Source of the DNA: an uncultured delta proteobacterium
GTDB taxonomy: Bacteria > Desulfobacterota > Binatia > Binatales > Binataceae
Assembly (NCBI GenBank): GCA_963808235.1
Contig: CAWEEQ010000004.1
Location: forward strand, 3,616,001-3,680,000
Direction: 5' to 3'
Length of the DNA stretch: 64,000 bases
The translations under genes were made by a program, and so were the position numbers. The notes under the pieces are model-generated. The model did no database searches. It saw only the letters and a list, made by a program, of their open reading frames with translations, and was not told where the DNA came from. This document shows, piece after piece, positions 40,868 to 45,597 of this stretch; the first letter of the stretch is position 1, and the number at the start of each line of letters is the position of its first letter.

Positions 40868-40973
40868 GATTCACACGAAATGCGGGCGCGGATTCCAGTT
40901 GCTTAAAGAGCTCGCTCGCGTCTAGCATCCGCGGCACCCGCGATCTCACCGTATGTGCATCTTGGAGGAGTCG

Positions 40974-41714
40974 ATGAACGAATTGGCAGCCTTTCGAGCC
41001 GCCCTGCTTGGCGCGGCTTTGATCCTTGTTCCCGCCACGGCCAGCTACGCCAAGGCACCCTTTCCCGGTGCGAAATGTGTTTCGACTTCGGGCACAACGA
41101 CCAACCCGGGACCGGATGGCAGCGAATGCTCGGCGGACTCCGATGGCAGTAAGGGCTCAAAGGCTGTTGCAAAGGCAACTGGCAATGGCGCCGACGCGCA
41201 AGCGTCCGTCACTGTCGGTGGCCTGGCCAAGTCGACCGCATTGGACGGTTCCGCCGCGGACACCGAAGCGGACGGGACGGGCTCGGCAATCTCTCACGCA
41301 ACCGGCGCCGGATCGTTTGCCGATTCCAATATTTCCGAGAGCGGCATCGGAATAAGTACGGCTAGTTCCGGCGGTGACTCCGGCGCCAACGCCAGGAGCA
41401 ACTGCAAATCCACTGCGACCGCTTCCAACAATGGAACGTCCATCAATGGATGCTTTCGACCTGGATCAGTGTCAGAAAGCAGCGCCGACGGCGGAACGGC
41501 TGGAACCTCATCCGAAGGAAACAACTGTAGAACCAAGGCGACCTCGTCCGGAGACGGCTCTGACGCGGAAGCCACCTGCATCAACAAGAACACGAAGGTG
41601 ATCGCAGTGGCCACCGGCGGCGGCATCGCGATGGGCTTCGACTATCAAGCGCCCGTCTGCACGCCCAACGGCGGCACCGCGATGGTGAAAAGCCCGATGG
41701 GAAACTGTCCCTGA
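40974..41714 (+). CDS. Secreted Gly/Ser/Ala/Thr-rich repeat protein with paired Cys
   Basis: GGAGGAG RBS, signal peptide, recurring A-x-A-T/S-G-x-G-S/A-x-A units. Confidence 0.8.
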   Translation: MNELAAFRAALLGAALILVPATASYAKAPFPGAKCVSTSGTTTNPGPDGSECSADSDGSKGSKAVAKATGNGADAQASVTVGGLAKSTALDGSAADTEADGTGSAISHATGAGSFADSNISESGIGISTASSGGDSGANARSNCKSTATASNNGTSINGCFRPGSVSESSADGGTAGTSSEGNNCRTKATSSGDGSDAEATCINKNTKVIAVATGGGIAMGFDYQAPVCTPNGGTAMVKSPMGNCP

Positions 41715-41820: not shown

Positions 41821-42042
41821 TCATCCGTGACTCTTTGGCATCCATCCCATATCGAACCACACAAGGGTCGAAATCATAAAGATGGTAGTCAGGATTAGGC
41901 AACGGAGCAGGATCGACCGAAACCACTCCGCAATCCGGCGCGGACGACCATGATAGTAGGGGAATCGGCTGATGCTCTCGAAGACGACCGCGAGCACGTA
42001 AACGATTACGAACATTTTAACAAAAGTGCCTAACGTCATCAT
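41821..42042 (-). CDS. Small 2-TM hypothetical protein
   Basis: 73 aa with two hydrophobic helices; directly downstream of the oxidoreductase. Confidence 0.45.
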   Translation of the reverse strand: MMTLGTFVKMFVIVYVLAVVFESISRFPYYHGRPRRIAEWFRSILLRCLILTTIFMISTLVWFDMGWMPKSHG

Positions 42043-42052
42043 CGACCTGCTG

Positions 42053-43319
42053 TCAGGCGGGGCGGGAGGCGGTCGCCATCAGGCGGGCGAATTTGAATGA
42101 GGGGAATTTGCCGCGCGGGGTTACCATTTGCGCGAAGCGGATCATTTCGTCGGCGGCCCATCGCTCGCGGTTGGCGGCGCGATGCGCGGCGCGGGTGCTC
42201 TTGTCGAGGGCGAGTACTCGCGAGACCTTCACGCTTGCGTTGTAGAACTGCAGCAGTTCCGCGTCGCGGCGCTCGGTGTAATTGGCGAGTGTGGCGGCTG
42301 GGATCGCGTTGCCGGTTGCAGCTCGAGAACCAATTCGGCGCGAGGTCGGCGACGATCGCCGCGCTCATCAGGGCGAGCGAATGGCCCTGGCCGAAGAGCG
42401 GATCGACGTGCAGGCCGGCGTCGCCGAGCAGGAGCGCGCCTGTGGTCACGGGATCGCGATAAGTGTTCTGAAGTAGTCCCGATGAAAATACTTTGCCTAC
42501 CATCGTTGCGCCCTCGAGCATCTTGCCGACTGCGAAGGAGCGATCGAGATAGCGGCGCAGATTGGACGGCAGGTCAGTGCGAAAGGAATGCATCTCGGCG
42601 GCGTCGAATGCGGTCGCGGCCACGGTGAGTCCGTTCTCGCATCGACAGACCAGATTGCCTTCGCCGCTCGGCCCGGATTCGAATTCAGTGACGACTTCGT
42701 CGCCGAGGCGCGCGCGATCGACGCCTTCGAAGTATGCGTAGTAATAGGCGCGCGAGCAGGGGACGTCGATCCGCGCGAATGCGCCGGTTCGATCCGATGC
42801 GAGCTGCGCGACCGAACTGCGCATCCCGTCGGCGCCGATCGTCAGCGGTGCGTGGAACTCGTGTGCGCCGAGTGCATCTTCGCCGCGGATGCCGACGATG
42901 GCGCCATTTTCGATTACAAGATCGGTGAGTCGGAAGCGCTCGCGAAAGGAAACGTTTTCGAAACTTCGGGCCGCGTCGATCATCGCGGAGTCCATCAGCA
43001 CGCGGCCGAGGCATAGTCCGCGATGGTCGGCGTCAGCATGCACGAGATCGCCGCCGTAATCGAAGTCCGGACCGATCGAGCGCATCCGGGCGAAGCGCAC
43101 ACCGCCGAGCCGCTCGAGCGTGTCGAGCACGCCCATCTTCGCGAGCACCATCGTTCCACCGCCGAGGACGATATGCGTCGAGAGGCGGTCGGATGGGAAC
43201 TGATCTTTGTCGACGAGCAGGACGCGGCGGCCGTCGCGGGCGAGAAAAATCGCGGCGGCGCTTCCGGCGACGCGCGCGCCGACGATTATCGCGTCGAAAG
43301 TTTTTGCTCGGTCGGGCAT
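42053..43319 (-). CDS. FAD-dependent oxidoreductase (geranylgeranyl reductase/FixC-like), frameshifted near 42320
   Basis: IVGARVAGS, IGADGMRS, LLGDAGLHVDPLFGQG; shifted frame continues ATLANYTERRDAELLQFY. Confidence 0.85.
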
Positions 43320-43390
43320 AGAGGCCGAAGTTCTCGGAGCATCGAAAACGCTATCACGCGGCGCCGGTGAGGGCGCAAGTGAGCGCGCCA

Positions 43391-43424
43391 GAAAGGAAAG
43401 AGCCCCCTCTTTCGAGGGGGCTCT
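43391..43424 (-). terminator. Intrinsic terminator
   Basis: AGAGCCCCCTC-GAAA-GAGGGGGCTCT followed by TTCCTTTC. Confidence 0.8.
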
Positions 43425-43530
43425 CCCGTGTTGCGAGGCCATTTTGCGCCTCGGCTTAATTCCAGCAGCAGATCCTGGCAGCCTTAGCCAGCCTCCGGGG
43501 TATTAGCCCGAAGGTAAACTCGTTAAGTGG

Positions 43531-43635
43531 TTACTTCTTTTTGGTCTTCTTCGCCGCTTTCTTCTTCTTCATATTGCTCTTTCTCATAGGTTTGGACTTG
43601 GTGGCCTTTTTGGCCCTTCGCTTCTTTACTGGCAT
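43531..43635 (-). CDS. 34-aa Lys/Arg-rich peptide (histone-tail/protamine-like), not in ORF track
   Basis: MPVKKRRAKKATKSKPMRKSNMKKKKAAKKTKKK*; GGAGG RBS at 43641-43645. Confidence 0.8.
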   Translation of the reverse strand: MPVKKRRAKKATKSKPMRKSNMKKKKAAKKTKKK

Positions 43636-43716
43636 AGGTACCTCCGCTTCCTAGGCTGCTGCTGGACAAGCTCCCTTTCTAATAAGTGAGGATCGGTTCC
43701 CCACGAGTTCGAGGCG

Positions 43717-43745
43717 ACTATATAAATATGTTATTCGCAGATCAA
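43717..43745 (-). promoter_or_regulatory. Sigma70 promoter for the Lys-rich peptide transcript
   Basis: TTGATC-N17-TATAGT with an AT-rich region upstream. Confidence 0.75.
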
Positions 43746-43872
43746 GGCCTTGCAGTGAGATTTATAAACAAATTTTAAAGTCGGAAAAATAGAATTAGAT
43801 CAGACCGTTTCCAGTCTTTAGAATATCGTTCACAATTAGATGCCTTGAAAGATCACCGGTGCTTGAATTACG

Positions 43873-44190
43873 ATGGCCCGGATGACGAGGTTAAGCTTTT
43901 TAATCCGCCGGGAATGGCTCAGCCTAATCTTCGCCGGCGTGCTCGTGATGCTGCTATTAAGCGCGCTGATGGGCAGGCTGGGCCCGCGCGACCTGATCGC
44001 GCTCCAACAGCATCGCGCGGCGCTGGAGGCTCGGCGCGGCGGGCTTGAGGCCGAAAACGCCTCGTTCAGAACAGAGATTCAGAAGCTTCGTTCAGACGAT
44101 CGTTATCTCGAACGGCTGATTCGGCGCGAGCTTGGATATGCGCGGGCGGACGAGCTGGTTTACAAGTTCAGCGACGATAATCAGCGCTGA
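43873..44190 (+). CDS. Septum formation initiator (FtsB/DivIC family)
   Basis: TM, coiled coil, DDRYLERLIRRELGYARADELVY. Confidence 0.85.
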   Translation: MARMTRLSFLIRREWLSLIFAGVLVMLLLSALMGRLGPRDLIALQQHRAALEARRGGLEAENASFRTEIQKLRSDDRYLERLIRRELGYARADELVYKFSDDNQR

Positions 44191-44262
44191 CGTCACACAA
44201 AAATTTCCTATTCGCAAAAATCTGTTGCGCGCGCTCTGCTGTAAATGTCAGGGCGAGGCTAT

Positions 44263-45597
44263 CTAGAAAATCGCCTTTCCGATCAGGCGATAGTCGCGGG
44301 CCTGGCGCTCGAGGTCGTCGCGGAAATCGGGATGCGCGATCGAGATCAGCGCGCGTGCCCGTTCGGGTACCGACTTGCCTTTGAGGTTCACGATTCCGTA
44401 CTCGGTCACGACGTACATCACGTCGGTGCGCGGGGTGGTGATGATATTGCATTCGTCGATACGGGCGACGATGCGGCTCGCGCGGTGCGTATCGCGCTCG
44501 TAGGTCGACGCAAGGCAGATGAATGACTTGCCCTCGCGCGCGGCGTATGCCCCGCGCACGAACTGCAGTTGTCCGCCGGTGCCGCTGATTTGCCGGATGC
44601 CGGCCGACTCGGAGCACGCTTGCCCGGTGAGATCGATTTGCGCGGCGTTGCAGATCGAAATGACGCGATCGTTTTGCATGATGTGATTCGGCAGATTGGT
44701 GTAGTCGACCGGGCCAGCGAAGCACGCTGCGTTGCGATCGAGAAAGTCGTACATCCGTTTCGAGCCCGCCGCGAAGGTGTACGCCATCTGGTAACGGTTG
44801 GTCTGTTTGTGCGCGCCGGTCACTTTGCCGGCCTCGAAGAGGGTGACGAGCGAGTCGACGAACATCTCGGTATGCACGCCGAGATCTTTTATCGGCGAGG
44901 TCGCGAGCAACTCGCAGACCGCATTGGGCATCGCGCCGATTCCAATCTGGATGCATGCGCCGCTCGGGATTTCAGGCGCGATCAGCTCGGCGACTTTCTG
45001 GTCGACAGGATTCGCGGGCGGATTTTTCAACTCCGGCATCGCGGTTCCGCCGCCCTCGAGAACTCCATGCACATCGCCGATATGCACCGCGTTCTCGATT
45101 CCGAAAACGTAGGGCATCGCAGGGTCGGTCTCGACGATCACGGTCTTGGCCTTCTCGGTGATCGCCTTGTGATAGGTGACGGCGGGGCCGAAATTAAAAA
45201 ATCCGTGCGGGTCCATCGGCGCGGTCTTGAGCACCGCTACATCGACGTCGACAAAGCGGCGGTAGTAGTCGGGCGCCTCACCGAAGTTCATCGGGATGTG
45301 ATGGGCGAGATCGCGATCGTGCATCTTTCGATCGAGTCCGGAGAAGTACCAAGACATATAGACGAGATGACGCGACTCGGGATCGGCGTCGACCGCGGCG
45401 CGCGGGCGCATCGCGAGGCATCCGCGGATTTTCACGCGCTCGAGCCGCGCGACTTGCCCGGCGAGAGCGCGATCGAACAGGTCGGGCTGTCCAAGGCCGA
45501 ATCCGTACTCGACCCAATCGCCTGACTTCACCTTGGCCGCGGCCGCGTCGGCGCTCAGCAGCTTGCGCTTAAGTTCGCCATCGAAAGATGTCTGCAT
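44263..45597 (-). CDS. Acetyl-CoA hydrolase/transferase (4-hydroxybutyrate CoA-transferase-like)
   Basis: IQIGIGAMP, LGVHTEM, ISGTGGQLQF, VVTEYG, IAHPDFR. Confidence 0.92.
   Translation of the reverse strand: MQTSFDGELKRKLLSADAAAAKVKSGDWVEYGFGLGQPDLFDRALAGQVARLERVKIRGCLAMRPRAAVDADPESRHLVYMSWYFSGLDRKMHDRDLAHHIPMNFGEAPDYYRRFVDVDVAVLKTAPMDPHGFFNFGPAVTYHKAITEKAKTVIVETDPAMPYVFGIENAVHIGDVHGVLEGGGTAMPELKNPPANPVDQKVAELIAPEIPSGACIQIGIGAMPNAVCELLATSPIKDLGVHTEMFVDSLVTLFEAGKVTGAHKQTNRYQMAYTFAAGSKRMYDFLDRNAACFAGPVDYTNLPNHIMQNDRVISICNAAQIDLTGQACSESAGIRQISGTGGQLQFVRGAYAAREGKSFICLASTYERDTHRASRIVARIDECNIITTPRTDVMYVVTEYGIVNLKGKSVPERARALISIAHPDFRDDLERQARDYRLIGKAIF

What the first reader, a model, noticed from the sequence alone, without database searches (positions are those of the whole stretch)
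43391..43745. Stand-alone structured transcript encoding a 34-aa polybasic peptide enclosed by crossing long-range pairings
Seen on the minus strand: a near-consensus promoter, a ~75-nt 5' UTR, GGAGG, an ORF with 16 Lys + 3 Arg and no acidic residues, a ~110-nt 3' UTR and a terminator. The 5'-end GAACTCGT (43710-43703) can pair with ACGAGTTT (43523-43516) just after the stop. The UTR segment TCCAGCAGCAG (43666-43656) pairs perfectly with CTGCTGCTGGA (43471-43461), extending imperfectly up to the SD. The order A-B-ORF-A'-B' makes these helices pseudoknotted or mutually exclusive. A C-UUCG-G hairpin and a GAGGC/GCCTC hairpin lie in the 3' UTR. Inference: a dual-function RNA or translationally gated mRNA (5'-3' pairing as in type I toxin mRNAs) producing a protamine/histone-tail-like peptide, or a Lys-codon-sensing RNA. 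Standard gene callers would miss it. It is divergent from the ftsB-like cell-division gene.
Basis: partly seen in the sequence, partly recalled or inferred. Interest (0 to 1): 0.8.

Follow-up and report, generated by a model that had tools for sequence, protein, structure and literature searches.

The report
Structured mRNA for lysine-rich micropeptide
This is a real, abundantly transcribed ~320-nt gene found across an uncultured bacterial class (Binatia): its two untranslated ends pair to close the RNA around a tiny, very lysine-rich protein, and neither the RNA nor the protein is in the standard family databases.

Summary
A sigma-70-like promoter (43745-43717), GGAGG, a 34-aa ORF (43635-43531, 16 K + 3 R, no D/E) and a terminator make a ~320-nt minus-strand unit.

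- **Distribution.** The unit is in 142 of 165 genomes of the family (record titles name Binataceae). A collinear version occurs in at least 10 more families of the class. It is nearly always divergent from ftsB or eno-ftsB.
- **Coding.** The ORF is really coding. Codon-position entropy is 0.51/0.65/1.10, indels are in frame, and 86 of 90 ORFs are intact.
- **Helix B.** It is 90% paired, and 12 of its 16 pairs show compensatory changes.
- **Helix A.** There is therefore no pseudoknot.
- **RBS pairing.** A further conserved pairing joins the SD/AUG region to the 3'UTR (86.8% paired against 30-42% in controls).
- **Expression.** Metatranscriptome contigs from four studies cover only the unit, not its flanks.
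- **Databases.** There is no Rfam, Pfam, NCBIfam or PDB match.

Best reading: a closed-loop, stabilised and translationally gated small mRNA for a Lys/Ala/Pro-rich polyanion-binding micropeptide. The peptide's target (nucleoid, ribosome or RNA) is inferred, not shown.

The parts
43760..43779 (-). AT-rich block TTTAAAATTTGTTTATAAAT upstream of the -35 (UP-element-like, or a regulator site)
   Evidence: Nearly invariant in the family alignments. In the own genome the motif, with up to 2 mismatches, occurs only 3 times. Two of these lie in this intergenic region in inverted orientation. It is therefore not a generic UP consensus of the genome.
43717..43745 (-). Promoter: -35 TTGATC, 17-nt spacer containing a conserved ATAAC, -10 TATAGT
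   Evidence: Promoter scan. The -35, ATAAC and TATAAT/TATAGT are conserved across 69 non-redundant family loci. The TSS near 43710 is inferred from spacing only.
43686..43704 (-). P1, the 5'-terminal hairpin (GTGGGGA / TCCTCAC)
   Evidence: All 7 pairs show compensatory changes, but only 58.7% of cells pair in the MAFFT alignment, which is poorly aligned at this end. Mean pair probability is about 0.3.
43656..43671 (-). Helix B, 5' arm (GCTTGTCCAGCAGCAG) in the 5'UTR
   Evidence: Pairs with 43471-43454. Of 16 pairs, 90.0% of cells are paired and 12 pairs have changes on both sides. RNAalifold predicts it. Mean pair probability is about 0.8 from independent folding of 49 sequences. The 11-nt perfect core was found by the repeat finder.
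43641..43645 (-). Shine-Dalgarno GGAGG
   Evidence: Read from the sequence. Conserved 5-8 nt before the ATG in the relatives.
43629..43642 (-). RBS segment that can pair with the 3'UTR: GGTACCT (43642-43636) and GCCAG (43633-43629, the G of AUG plus CCAG)
   Evidence: 12 pairs with 43483-43477 and 43491-43487. 86.8% of cells are paired against 30-42% when slid by 1-3 columns. Covariation is slight because the sequence is conserved. Mean pair probability is about 0.53. The Pro-2 codon is CCA in 73 of 74 Pro-coding sequences, a synonymous-site constraint.
43531..43635 (-). ORF, 34 aa plus stop: MPVKKRRAKKATKSKPMRKSNMKKKKAAKKTKKK
   Evidence: ORF list. Codon-position entropy is 0.51/0.65/1.10 over 77 distinct coding sequences. 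Indels are in frame. The ORF is intact in 86 of 90 loci. Profile hits occur in 43 of 49 family genomes, one per genome.
43603..43615 (-). P3, a small hairpin inside the ORF (GGCC-AAAAA-GGCC)
   Evidence: A local hairpin with z < -1.5 is present in 33 of 49 relatives, with different stem sequences. It is absent from some clades.
43492..43514 (-). P4, a 3'UTR hairpin (CCTTCGGG / CCCGGAGG).
   Evidence: 88.6% of cells paired; 6 of 7 pairs have compensatory changes.
43477..43491 (-). 3'UTR anti-RBS segment: CTGGC (43491-43487) and GGCTGCC (43483-43477). Alternatively it forms a local hairpin P5 (CTGGC/GCCAG).
   Evidence: Pairing with the RBS is covered. The local P5 alternative is 82.8% paired with no compensatory change. 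The two pairings are mutually exclusive.
43454..43471 (-). Helix B, 3' arm (CTGCTGCTGGAATTAAGC)
   Evidence: See the 5' arm.
43434..43453 (-).
   Evidence: 91.3% of cells paired; 2 pairs with compensatory changes. It is missing in three species that also carry a frameshifted ORF.
43391..43426 (-). Intrinsic terminator (GGAGAGCCCCCTC / GAGGGGGCTCTTTC plus a T-rich tail)
   Evidence: Terminator scan and the 11-nt perfect inverted repeat. 95.9% of cells are paired and 5 of 8 pairs have compensatory changes. One metatranscriptome contig ends at 43402.
43873..44190 (+). Divergent ftsB-like gene (DivIC/FtsB family). This is genomic context, not part of the transcript.
   Evidence: Pfam PF04977 at 2e-13. 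It lies upstream and on the opposite strand in 88 of 90 loci.

Best explanation
It is a small, strongly transcribed, monocistronic mRNA of about 320 nt, conserved through the class Binatia. It encodes a 21-37 aa micropeptide made almost only of Lys, Ala, Pro, Ser and Thr.

**How the RNA is built**
- The RNA is a closed loop: a 5'-terminal hairpin, a 13-16 bp helix between the 5'UTR and the 3'UTR that encloses the ORF, 3'UTR hairpins, and an intrinsic terminator.
- In Binataceae, including this window, the 3' half of the SD, the spacer and the start codon can also pair with a 3'UTR segment just inside that helix. This pairing competes with a local 3'UTR hairpin.
- In the sister family f9 the SD instead often pairs with a local upstream CUUCC/CUCC.

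**Shown here**
- The transcript exists as a discrete RNA.
- The ORF is under protein-level selection.
- The closing helix is maintained by compensatory changes.
- The RBS pairing potential is conserved.

**Inferred**
- The closing helix and the end hairpins stabilise the mRNA against RNases, as in B. subtilis hbs.
- The RBS pairing limits or gates translation, as in S. aureus icaR.
- The peptide acts as an abundant polycation that binds a polyanion. By composition this is most likely the nucleoid, in the manner of H1-tail or PAKKA-repeat proteins, or else ribosomal or other RNA.
For: **Anatomy.**

**Distribution**
- 34 of 36 other genomes of the genus match at 76-92% identity.
- 142 of 165 genomes and 23 of 30 genera of the family match.
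- There is one peptide-profile hit per genome in 43 of 49 family genomes.

**Coding**
- Codon-position entropy is 0.51/0.65/1.10. Invariant Lys columns mix AAA and AAG.
- Indels are in frame.
- 86 of 90 ORFs are intact.

**Structure**
- The whole model is 86.3% paired against 38-55% when slid. 32 of 48 pairs have compensatory changes, and 0 of 500 shuffles reach the observed values.
- Helix B is 90% paired, with 12 of 16 pairs compensatory.
- Pair probabilities from independent folding are about 0.8 for helix B and about 0.53 for the RBS helix.
- The RBS helix is 86.8% paired against 30-42% in controls.

**Class-wide homologues with the same architecture**
- The f9 element matches in 23 of 25 f9 genomes.
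- The closing helix lies in the MFE of 14 of 16 non-Binataceae transcripts, using a different sequence: CUCGCCUGAG with CUCAGGCGAG.
- The peptides are collinear.
- A divergent poly-Lys ORF with an SD lies within 6 kb upstream of ftsB in 22 of 40 genomes of 14 other families.
- The exact KAKKKAPAKKK coding motif occurs once per genome in 45 of 401 class genomes, with 0 hits to the reversed control.

**Expression**
- 23 RNA runs from 18 studies hold part of the stretch.
- In 4 runs laid on the window, contigs of 42-277 nt cover only 43402-43688. Word depth reaches 937, and the flanks have none.

**Lys specificity**
- The 86 peptides are 45.6% Lys and 6.2% Arg. The genome's 1235 long ORFs are 3.1% Lys and 8.0% Arg.

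**Mechanistic precedents (abstracts read)**
- hbs: a 14-bp 5'/3'-UTR interaction modulating RNase Y cleavage, PMC5737220.
- icaR: a 3'UTR pairing with the SD region, PMC3868564.
Against: - There is no experimental TSS, 3' end, ribosome footprint or peptide detection.
- The RNA evidence is assembled contigs from relatives, not raw reads of this organism. Contigs cannot show strand, ends or level. The less conserved flanks could have failed the 82% likeness cut.
- The RBS helix shows almost no covariation: 4 pairs, 7 cells. Its conservation could reflect translation-initiation or N-terminal codon constraints instead.
- The competing local hairpin P5 fits the sequences about as well, at 82.8% paired.
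- In family f9 the SD is occluded in a different way, so 3'UTR-RBS pairing is not a class-wide feature.
- Three species (G116, G119, G120) share a 1-nt deletion that truncates the peptide to 18 aa, yet they keep the promoter, helix B and terminator. This hints that the RNA may matter on its own.
- Nothing tested here says what the peptide binds. There is no Pfam, NCBIfam or PDB similarity.
Confidence: 0.55

Rival explanations
1. The peptide is an unannotated ribosomal protein of the bS22/eL41/mS38 kind. It would be a roughly 30-aa polybasic helix buried in an rRNA pocket, and the structured mRNA would serve autogenous or growth-rate control.
For: - The size (21-37 aa) and charge (about 52% K+R over the 86 family peptides; 56% in the window peptide) match the description of bS22 in PMC10618245. 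[quoted passage not shown]
- The promoter is strong and followed by a GC-rich stretch.
- There is one copy per genome.
- No canonical bS22 (PF08213) is found in the own genome, while the control rings in Corynebacterium glutamicum.
- A conserved central Pro could give a bent helix. This is inference.
Against: - There is no match to PF08213 or any NCBIfam model at E <= 10 for 38 peptides.
- No PDB chain, ribosomal or other, matches at E <= 10 with two profiles and one peptide. The only hit was a zinc finger at E = 0.71.
- The composition is Lys/Ala/Pro with almost no Arg or hydrophobic residues. As I recall them, known bS22/eL41 sequences are Arg-rich with Leu/Met/Ile; their sequences were not seen here, because supplements are closed.
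- Length and the N-terminal half vary a lot for a buried ribosomal protein.
Confidence: 0.15
2. The RNA itself is the main effector, making this a dual-function or regulatory RNA. It would be an abundant rod-like RNA whose purine-rich (AAG)n interior and conserved loops titrate an RNA-binding protein such as Hfq, or base-pair with targets. The peptide would be secondary.
For: - Within the genus the UTRs are more conserved than the ORF.
- There are synonymous-site constraints: CCA in 73 of 74 Pro codons, TCC in 72 of 77 Ser codons, and AAA in 67 of 72 Lys codons at one position.
- Three species keep the RNA scaffold with a truncated ORF.
- Abundance is high in small metatranscriptomes.
- No 6S RNA (RF00013) is found in the own genome.
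- (AAG)n fits the A-R-N motif of the Hfq distal face. This is recalled, not tested.
Against: - There is a clear protein-level signature: third-position variability, in-frame indels, and a conserved start, SD and stop.
- The peptide core is conserved across families whose UTR sequences differ.
- No target or partner was tested.
- No Rfam family matches. The best hit, BjrC68, scores 22.3 bits against a gathering score of 39 and lies mostly on the terminator.
Confidence: 0.12
3. It is a Lys-sensing leader peptide or attenuator that controls the downstream gene through the terminator.
For: 19 of 34 codons are Lys or Arg, and a strong terminator follows on the same strand as the next gene.
Against: - The downstream FAD-dependent oxidoreductase is present in only 46 of 90 loci.
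- In other families the downstream genes differ again.
- The peptide has invariant non-Lys residues.
- No antiterminator alternative to the terminator appears in the consensus fold.
- Metatranscriptome contigs stop at the terminator.
Confidence: 0.03
4. It is a type I toxin-antitoxin-like locus, with a toxic small peptide whose mRNA is locked by 5'-3' pairing.
For: There is long-range 5'-3' pairing and RBS occlusion.
Against: - The peptide has no hydrophobic or transmembrane segment.
- The gene is single-copy with fixed synteny across a class.
- The promoter is strong and the RNA is abundant.
- No antisense promoter was noted in the scan.
Confidence: 0.03

Closest known systems
B. subtilis hbs mRNA (5'/3'-UTR interaction; PMC5737220, abstract read)
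   Same: Both are highly expressed short mRNAs for a small basic nucleic-acid-binding protein. Both have a roughly 14-bp long-range 5'UTR-3'UTR helix and a strong SD. Here the helix has 13-16 bp with covariation.
   Different: HBsu is a folded 92-aa HU protein (recalled), whereas this peptide is 21-37 aa and low-complexity. Protection from RNase Y/J1 is shown for hbs and only inferred here. The phyla are unrelated and there is no sequence similarity.
S. aureus icaR mRNA (3'UTR pairs with the SD region; PMC3868564, abstract read)
   Same: A 3'UTR segment is complementary to the ribosome-binding region of the same mRNA. Here 12 pairs cover the SD 3' half, the spacer and the AUG.
   Different: icaR encodes a repressor and has a 3'UTR longer than 100 nt. 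Its pairing is shown to block initiation and to create an RNase III site. Here the pairing is only a conserved potential. It sits inside an additional closing helix and is restricted to Binataceae.
Type I toxin mRNAs with 5'-3' fold-back (hok and similar; recalled, not read)
   Same: Both have a long-range 5'-3' interaction that keeps the RBS closed in the full-length RNA.
   Different: There is no hydrophobic toxin and no antisense RNA was seen. The gene is single-copy and inherited like a core gene.
bS22 / eL41 / mS38 ribosomal micro-proteins (PMC10618245, passages read)
   Same: Both are about 30 aa with more than 50% basic residues, are missed by annotation, and have an abundant transcript.
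   Different: There is no HMM or PDB similarity. This peptide is rich in Lys/Ala/Pro, not in Arg and hydrophobic residues.
Lys/Ala/Pro low-complexity DNA-binding tails (PAKKA repeats of mycobacterial Ku; MDP1/HupB tails; histone H1 C-terminal domain). PMC3553676, PMC5974015 and PMC10810275 were seen only as the search listing with the start of each abstract.
   Same: The composition and short motifs are alike: KKKAPAKKKAAKKKK. Lys is strongly preferred over Arg in a GC-rich genome.
   Different: Those are tails of larger folded proteins, whereas this is a free-standing micropeptide with its own structured mRNA. There is no Pfam HC2 hit. The nearest named ESM-Atlas cluster (HC2 in 20% of members) scores only 0.79.

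Membership tests
Any Rfam 15 family (including 6S and tmRNA) | Covariance-model score at or above the family's gathering threshold | tested here: not met
   The best hit is BjrC68 at 22.3 bits against a gathering score of 39. There is no 6S or tmRNA hit at E <= 10 in 42800-44400. RF00013 finds nothing in the whole own genome. The f9 homologue also has no hit.
bS22 (Pfam PF08213 COX24_C) | HMM match to the family profile | tested here: not met
   0 of 38 peptides match at E <= 10. There is no six-frame hit in the own genome at E <= 1, while the control is positive in Corynebacterium glutamicum.
bS22 (Pfam PF08213 COX24_C) | About 30 aa, more than 50% K/R, encoded by a small unannotated ORF | tested here: met
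   The window peptide is 34 aa with 56% K+R. Only 10 matches exist in 1.84 billion representative proteins.
bS22 (Pfam PF08213 COX24_C) | Bound in the 16S h2/h27/h44/h45 pocket | not testable with these tools
   This needs a ribosome structure or proteomics from a Binatia enrichment.
Type I toxin-antitoxin mRNA | Small hydrophobic, membrane-active toxin | tested here: not met
   The peptide has no hydrophobic stretch, and 19 of its 34 residues are K or R.
Type I toxin-antitoxin mRNA | Long-range 5'-3' pairing that occludes the RBS | tested here: met
   Helix B and the RBS/3'UTR pairing.
Type I toxin-antitoxin mRNA | Overlapping or adjacent antisense RNA antitoxin | tested here: inconclusive
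   The only plus-strand promoter-like site in 43200-44000 is the one before ftsB. No stranded reads were available.
Amino-acid attenuator leader peptide | A conserved downstream co-oriented operon under the terminator's control | tested here: not met
   The downstream FAD oxidoreductase is present in 46 of 90 loci.
Amino-acid attenuator leader peptide | Alternative antiterminator pairing overlapping the terminator | tested here: inconclusive
   None appears in the RNAalifold consensus or in mean pair probabilities of 0.25 or more. No dedicated search was made.
mRNAs with a functional 5'UTR-3'UTR interaction (hbs/icaR type) | Intramolecular helix between the 5'UTR and the 3'UTR, conserved among relatives | tested here: met
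   16 pairs, 90% paired, 12 with compensatory changes. An analogous helix with a different sequence is in the MFE of 14 of 16 transcripts from other families.
mRNAs with a functional 5'UTR-3'UTR interaction (hbs/icaR type) | The interaction changes RNase cleavage or translation initiation | not testable with these tools
   This needs reporter, toeprint or half-life assays.
H1-like / PAKKA-type polycationic DNA-binding low-complexity sequences | Lys/Ala/Pro-dominated composition with KKxAPAKK-type motifs | tested here: met
   Peptides from other families carry KAKKKAPAKKK. The family peptides are 45.6% Lys and 6.2% Arg.
H1-like / PAKKA-type polycationic DNA-binding low-complexity sequences | DNA binding or compaction | not testable with these tools
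   This needs EMSA or compaction assays with the synthetic peptide.

The most novel reading that the evidence does not exclude
This is a previously undescribed class-wide gene type in which RNA and peptide are both effectors. It would be one of the most abundant non-rRNA transcripts of Binatia cells. Its closed, rod-like RNA with a purine-rich interior would act as a regulator or sponge. Its Lys-only micropeptide would be a new free-standing nucleoid or ribosome component, co-controlled with the divergent eno-ftsB cell-division operon.
Probability: 0.15. Interest if true: 0.8.

Novelty: new variant of a known kind. Interest (0 to 1): 0.55.

Why it matters
Binatia (Binatota) are widespread, uncultured soil and sediment bacteria, and nothing is known of their post-transcriptional biology.

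This locus offers three things:
- A conserved micropeptide family that annotation pipelines miss.
- A rare natural series of bacterial 5'UTR-3'UTR closing helices with clear covariation. Only a handful of such mRNAs (hbs, icaR) have been studied.
- A candidate abundant polycation whose target could bear on nucleoid or ribosome organisation in a whole class.

Soil and peat metatranscriptome assemblies from several studies contain it, so it is also a practical expression marker for these organisms. If the peptide turns out to be a ribosomal or nucleoid component, it would extend the list of lineage-specific micro-proteins found only by structure or by chance.

Tried and rejected
**Helix A and the pseudoknot.** Counted on 49 sequences and rejected.

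**Database searches that found nothing**
- Rfam E-value scans of the window region and of the f9 homologue.
- RF00013 in the own genome.
- Pfam and NCBIfam on the peptide and on 38 relatives at E <= 10. The only result was DUF3020 for 1 of 38 at E = 0.1.
- PDB sequence searches with profiles A1 and A3 and with one peptide. The only result was a zinc finger at E = 0.71.
- ESM Atlas: only unnamed 'hypothetical protein' clusters, with recognition 1475, below the useful range.

**Searches with limited reach**
- The profile search of 1.84 billion representatives returned 10 proteins at E <= 1e-3. All were the same peptide or upstream-extended calls of it. The query is short and low in complexity, so this does not show absence elsewhere.
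- The mixed profile A3 was insensitive: 35 of 301 genomes, and only 24 of 49 in the family that certainly has the peptide. I therefore did not use it for distribution.

**Other negative or unusable results**
- The idea that the AT-rich block is the genome's general UP element is rejected. The motif occurs only 3 times in the genome, and 2 of these are at this locus.
- A CsrA-type GGA loop in P5 is rejected by eye. The GGA is AGA in many relatives.
- RNAduplex on 230-nt flanks gave uninformative whole-length duplexes. It was replaced by MFE checks.
- An APC-corrected mutual-information scan was dominated by phylogenetic signal and added no new helix.
- A covariance model of the whole RNA was not built.
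- In the laid runs, the lack of cover on the flanks is only a weak hint, because these are contigs of relatives laid at an 82% likeness cut.

**Literature**
- The search 'Binatota' OR 'small RNA' was badly posed and useless.
- 'Binatota' AND 'metatranscriptom' gave 18 papers, 15 of them listed. None is about small RNAs or small proteins, judging by title and abstract.
- The six-term search returned, among its 10 listed papers, none containing Binatia or Binatota.
- 'lysine-rich' + 'small protein' + 'ribosome-associated' + 'bacteria' gave 7 papers, 6 listed, none relevant.
- I therefore found no prior description, but these searches are narrow.
- Supplements are closed. The bS22 sequences in the supplement of PMC10618245 could not be compared.

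**Corrections**
- A recount gives 22 of 40 and f8 2 of 9.
- The same notebook entry describes the f9 5'UTR as ~80-100 nt; one search shows roughly 115 nt between the -10 and the ATG, so the 5'UTR is about 76-100 nt only after subtracting the TSS offset used.
Full report
**What is in the window.**
- On the minus strand there is an AT-rich block at 43779-43760.
- The promoter follows at 43745-43717: -35 TTGATC, a 17-nt spacer, -10 TATAGT.
- The 5'UTR is about 75 nt and starts with a hairpin, GTGGGGA/TCCTCAC, at 43704-43686.
- GGAGG lies at 43645-43641.
- The ORF at 43635-43531 encodes MPVKKRRAKKATKSKPMRKSNMKKKKAAKKTKKK.
- The 3'UTR has about 105 nt before the terminator. The terminator has an 11-nt perfect stem and spans 43426-43396.
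- The whole RNA folds better than shuffles: -117.9 kcal/mol, z = -3.74, 0 of 100 shuffles as good.

**Known families.**
- The Rfam E-value scan of 42800-44400 gave only sub-threshold hits. The best was BjrC68 at 22.3 bits against a gathering score of 39, lying on the terminator region.
- 6S RNA (RF00013) is found nowhere in the own genome, which is 93% complete.
- The peptive has no Pfam or NCBIfam hit. Neither do 38 relatives at E <= 10, apart from one DUF3020 hit at E = 0.1.
- No PDB chain matches.

**Taxon and distribution.**
- An exact-pattern scan of species-representative genomes returned many chance hits in unrelated taxa. It also returned a set of records titled Candidatus Binataceae, Binatus, Binatia or 'uncultured delta proteobacterium' MAGs. 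The organism therefore belongs to Binataceae (Binatota).
- The DNA of the unit matches 34 of 36 other genomes of the genus at 76-92% identity.
- It matches 142 of 165 genomes and 23 of 30 genera of the family, and 82 of 96 among genomes that are at least 90% complete and at most 5% contaminated.
- A peptide profile (A1) hits once per genome in 43 of 49 family genomes. It hits 0 of 252 genomes in the other 19 families.
- I fetched 90 loci. A profile of the genus alignment recovers the full-length unit, promoter included, in all 90. These loci were chosen from BLAST hits, so that result is expected.
- Transcript length is held at 292-323 nt.

**It codes.**
- Within the genus the UTRs are nearly invariant, while the ORF varies through in-frame indels and synonymous changes.
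- Over 77 distinct coding sequences, mean entropy by codon position is 0.51, 0.65 and 1.10. Invariant Lys columns mix AAA and AAG.
- The ORF is intact in 86 of 90 loci. One locus has an extra A in a homopolymer.
- Three species of one genus (G116, G119, G120) share a 1-nt deletion that stops the frame after 18 aa. The C-terminal part stays open in another frame, and these three also lack hairpin P6.
- Some synonymous sites are frozen, which points to RNA-level constraint as well: Pro-2 is CCA in 73 of 74 Pro-coding sequences, Ser is TCC in 72 of 77, and one Lys is AAA in 67 of 72.

**Structure.** The tests used a 49-sequence alignment with less than 90% identity between rows (A2).
- Counting a manual model of 48 pairs gives 86.3% of cells paired, against 38-55% when slid. 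32 pairs have changes on both sides, and 0 of 500 shuffles reach any of the five measures.
- Helix B (43671-43656 with 43471-43454) is 90.0% paired, and 12 of its 16 pairs are compensatory. For example, one pair is U-A in 23 sequences, C-G in 18 and U-G in 5.
- Helix A is 41.8% paired against 25-46% for slid versions. 21 of 500 shuffles reach the observed percentage paired, and 37 of 500 reach the covariation score. It is not conserved, so the crossing topology falls.
- I noticed a further nested pairing. GG of the SD plus the spacer (43642-43636) pairs with GGCTGCC (43483-43477). The G of AUG plus CCAG (43633-43629) pairs with CTGGC (43491-43487).
  - It is 86.8% paired against 30-42% when slid, but has little covariation.
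  - It excludes the local hairpin CTGGC/GCCAG, which is 82.8% paired with no covariation.
- Independent partition-function folding of the 49 sequences gives mean pair probabilities of about 0.8 for helix B and about 0.53 for the RBS pairing. The local hairpin stays below 0.25.
- A small hairpin inside the ORF is present in 33 of 49 sequences with varied stems.

**Context.**
- The ftsB-like gene (PF04977) lies upstream and divergent in 88 of 90 loci.
- The downstream FAD oxidoreductase is present in only 46 of 90 loci. This speaks against a leader or attenuator role.

**Expression.**
- 23 RNA runs from 18 studies hold 5-12% of the sampled words of a 601-nt stretch around the unit.
- I laid 4 of the 24 listed runs, from soil, freshwater and peat and from four studies. 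Their assembled contigs (42-277 nt long, 82% to over 99% alike) lie only between 43402 and 43688. Nothing lies on 43300-43383 or 43699-43900. Word depths reach 937 in X1 and 152 in X17.
- One contig begins exactly at 43402, in the terminator.
- These are contigs, mostly of relatives. They show that a discrete RNA of this kind is present in RNA libraries. They do not show ends, strand or level.

**Beyond the family.**
- I searched the class for FtsB, which is found in 66 of 81 genomes. Scanning 900 nt upstream of ftsB revealed divergent poly-Lys ORFs in all four loci of family f9.
- The f9 unit has the same plan:
  - an AT-rich block, -35 CTTGAC and -10 TATACT;
  - a 5'UTR of about 80-100 nt;
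  - a closing helix of a different sequence, UUCUCGCCUGAGA with UCUCAGGCGAGAA;
  - AGGAGG, often in a local hairpin with an upstream CUUCC;
  - a 21-30 aa ORF, a 3'UTR of about 120 nt with a GC hairpin, and a terminator.
- Its DNA matches 23 of 25 f9 genomes. Its SD-plus-ORF part matches genomes in many other families. 27 of the 30 fetched loci carry an SD-preceded poly-Lys ORF.
- The closing helix lies in the MFE of 14 of 16 non-Binataceae transcripts. Three further loci were not folded because my -10 pattern failed on them.
- The peptides of other families align collinearly with the Binataceae ones: M-[AP]-[AV]-KKK, a variable stretch, KSK[AP]K[KL]K, then KKKA-x-KKKK.
- In 6 kb upstream of ftsB in 40 genomes of 14 further families, 22 have such a divergent ORF, and 18 of those carry the core KKKAPAKK.
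  - Found: f10 7 of 7, f13 3 of 3, f2 3 of 3, f6 2 of 2, f11 2 of 3, f8 2 of 9, f5 1 of 1, f7 1 of 1, f18 1 of 1.
  - Not found: f3 0 of 4, f14 0 of 3, f15 0 of 1, f17 0 of 1.
  - f16 has one, but on the same strand as ftsB.
- The exact coding pattern for KAKKKAPAKKK occurs once per genome in 45 of 401 class genomes, with varied third positions and 0 hits to the reversed control.
- The gene is therefore at least 11 families wide (f1, f2, f5, f6, f7, f8, f9, f10, f11, f13, f18). In those 22 loci the ORF start lies about 0.35-4.1 kb from the ftsB-end of the fetched stretch, most often about 1.7-1.8 kb. Very long open frames run into ftsB in several families, which suggests that eno lies between. 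I did not check that.

**What the peptide is like.**
- The 86 Binataceae peptides are 45.6% Lys and 6.2% Arg. The genome's 1235 long ORFs are 3.1% Lys and 8.0% Arg.
- Lys, and not simply positive charge, is therefore selected. This holds in a genome of 60% G+C.
- The rest of the peptide is Ala, Pro, Ser and Thr.
- That is the make-up of H1-like tails and of PAKKA repeats that modulate DNA binding in mycobacterial proteins (search listing with abstract starts only).
- It is less like bS22/eL41. Those share the size, charge, lack of annotation and abundant transcript (PMC10618245, passages). They gave no HMM or PDB similarity here.

**Mechanism, as far as it can be argued.**
- Shown: a discrete RNA, a translated-type ORF, a closing helix kept by compensation, and a conserved RBS-3'UTR complementarity.
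- Inferred:
  - The 5' hairpin, closing helix and terminator make a nuclease-resistant closed mRNA, as in hbs (PMC5737220).
  - The RBS pairing tunes translation or couples it to RNA fate, as in icaR (PMC3868564).
  - The peptide is an abundant polycation for the nucleoid or for RNA and ribosomes.
- The three species with a truncated ORF but an intact scaffold, together with the frozen synonymous sites, keep an RNA-level function alive as a minority reading.

**Limits.**
- There were no raw reads and no covariance model of the full RNA.
- Supplements of papers are closed.
- Tallies include some unpublished genomes, which are listed in Tried and rejected.

Noticed in passing
window 43780-43882 (plus strand, before ftsB): The ftsB side of the intergenic region has its own conserved blocks. 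A second copy of the TTTAGAAT-type motif sits at about 43817 in inverted orientation to the one at 43779-43760. Conserved GTTCAG..CATAAG and CTTGAA blocks follow. A promoter-like site, TTGAAA-18-TACGAT at 43845-43874, has a -10 that overlaps the listed ATG at 43873. FtsB may therefore start at the ATG at 43882 on a leaderless or very short-leader mRNA, and the paired motifs may be sites for one regulator of both promoters.
   Followed up: partly
L088, L089, L090 (G116, G119, G120; same genus as L045-L047): These three share a 1-nt deletion that truncates the peptide to 18 aa. The C-terminal MKKKKAAKKKKR part stays open in the +2 frame behind an internal ATG, and hairpin P6 is deleted. The promoter, helix B and terminator are kept. 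This could be a split gene, a decaying gene or an RNA-only function.
   Followed up: partly
own genome G000 (whole): No match to the 6S RNA model RF00013 at E <= 0.001 in a 93%-complete genome. The control rang in 5 of 14 reference genomes.
   Followed up: no
window 43588-43596 (AAGTCCAAA, codons K-S-K of the ORF): This stretch is almost frozen at synonymous positions across the family: TCC in 72 of 77 sequences and AAA in 67 of 72. It is unpaired in all models. No partner was found.
   Followed up: no
window 42039-43442 (minus strand): The listed 467-aa ORF of the FAD-dependent oxidoreductase begins inside the terminator/P6 region of the small RNA. Homology starts only at about residue 45, so the true start is probably the Met near 43319. 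Its last ~90 residues are Arg/Pro-rich with no family match beyond about residue 380, which looks like an out-of-frame tail from a frameshift or an assembly error.
   Followed up: no
window 40953-41714 (plus strand): A 253-aa ORF with a signal-peptide-like N-terminus and a long Ser/Gly/Thr/Ala/Asp-rich low-complexity body containing several Cys. It was not examined.
   Followed up: no
window 43396-43403 and 43576-43583: An 8-nt perfect complementarity joins the 3' half of the terminator (GCTCTTTC on the RNA) and AGAAAGAGC inside the ORF. It is probably chance. Its conservation was not checked.
   Followed up: no
L261-L285 (family f9 homologues): The 3'UTRs of the f9 units carry an almost invariant GCUAGGCACGUA motif. 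Their 5'UTRs begin with G-rich GUGG repeats. The SD is often closed by a local CUUCC..GGAGG hairpin instead of by the 3'UTR.
   Followed up: partly
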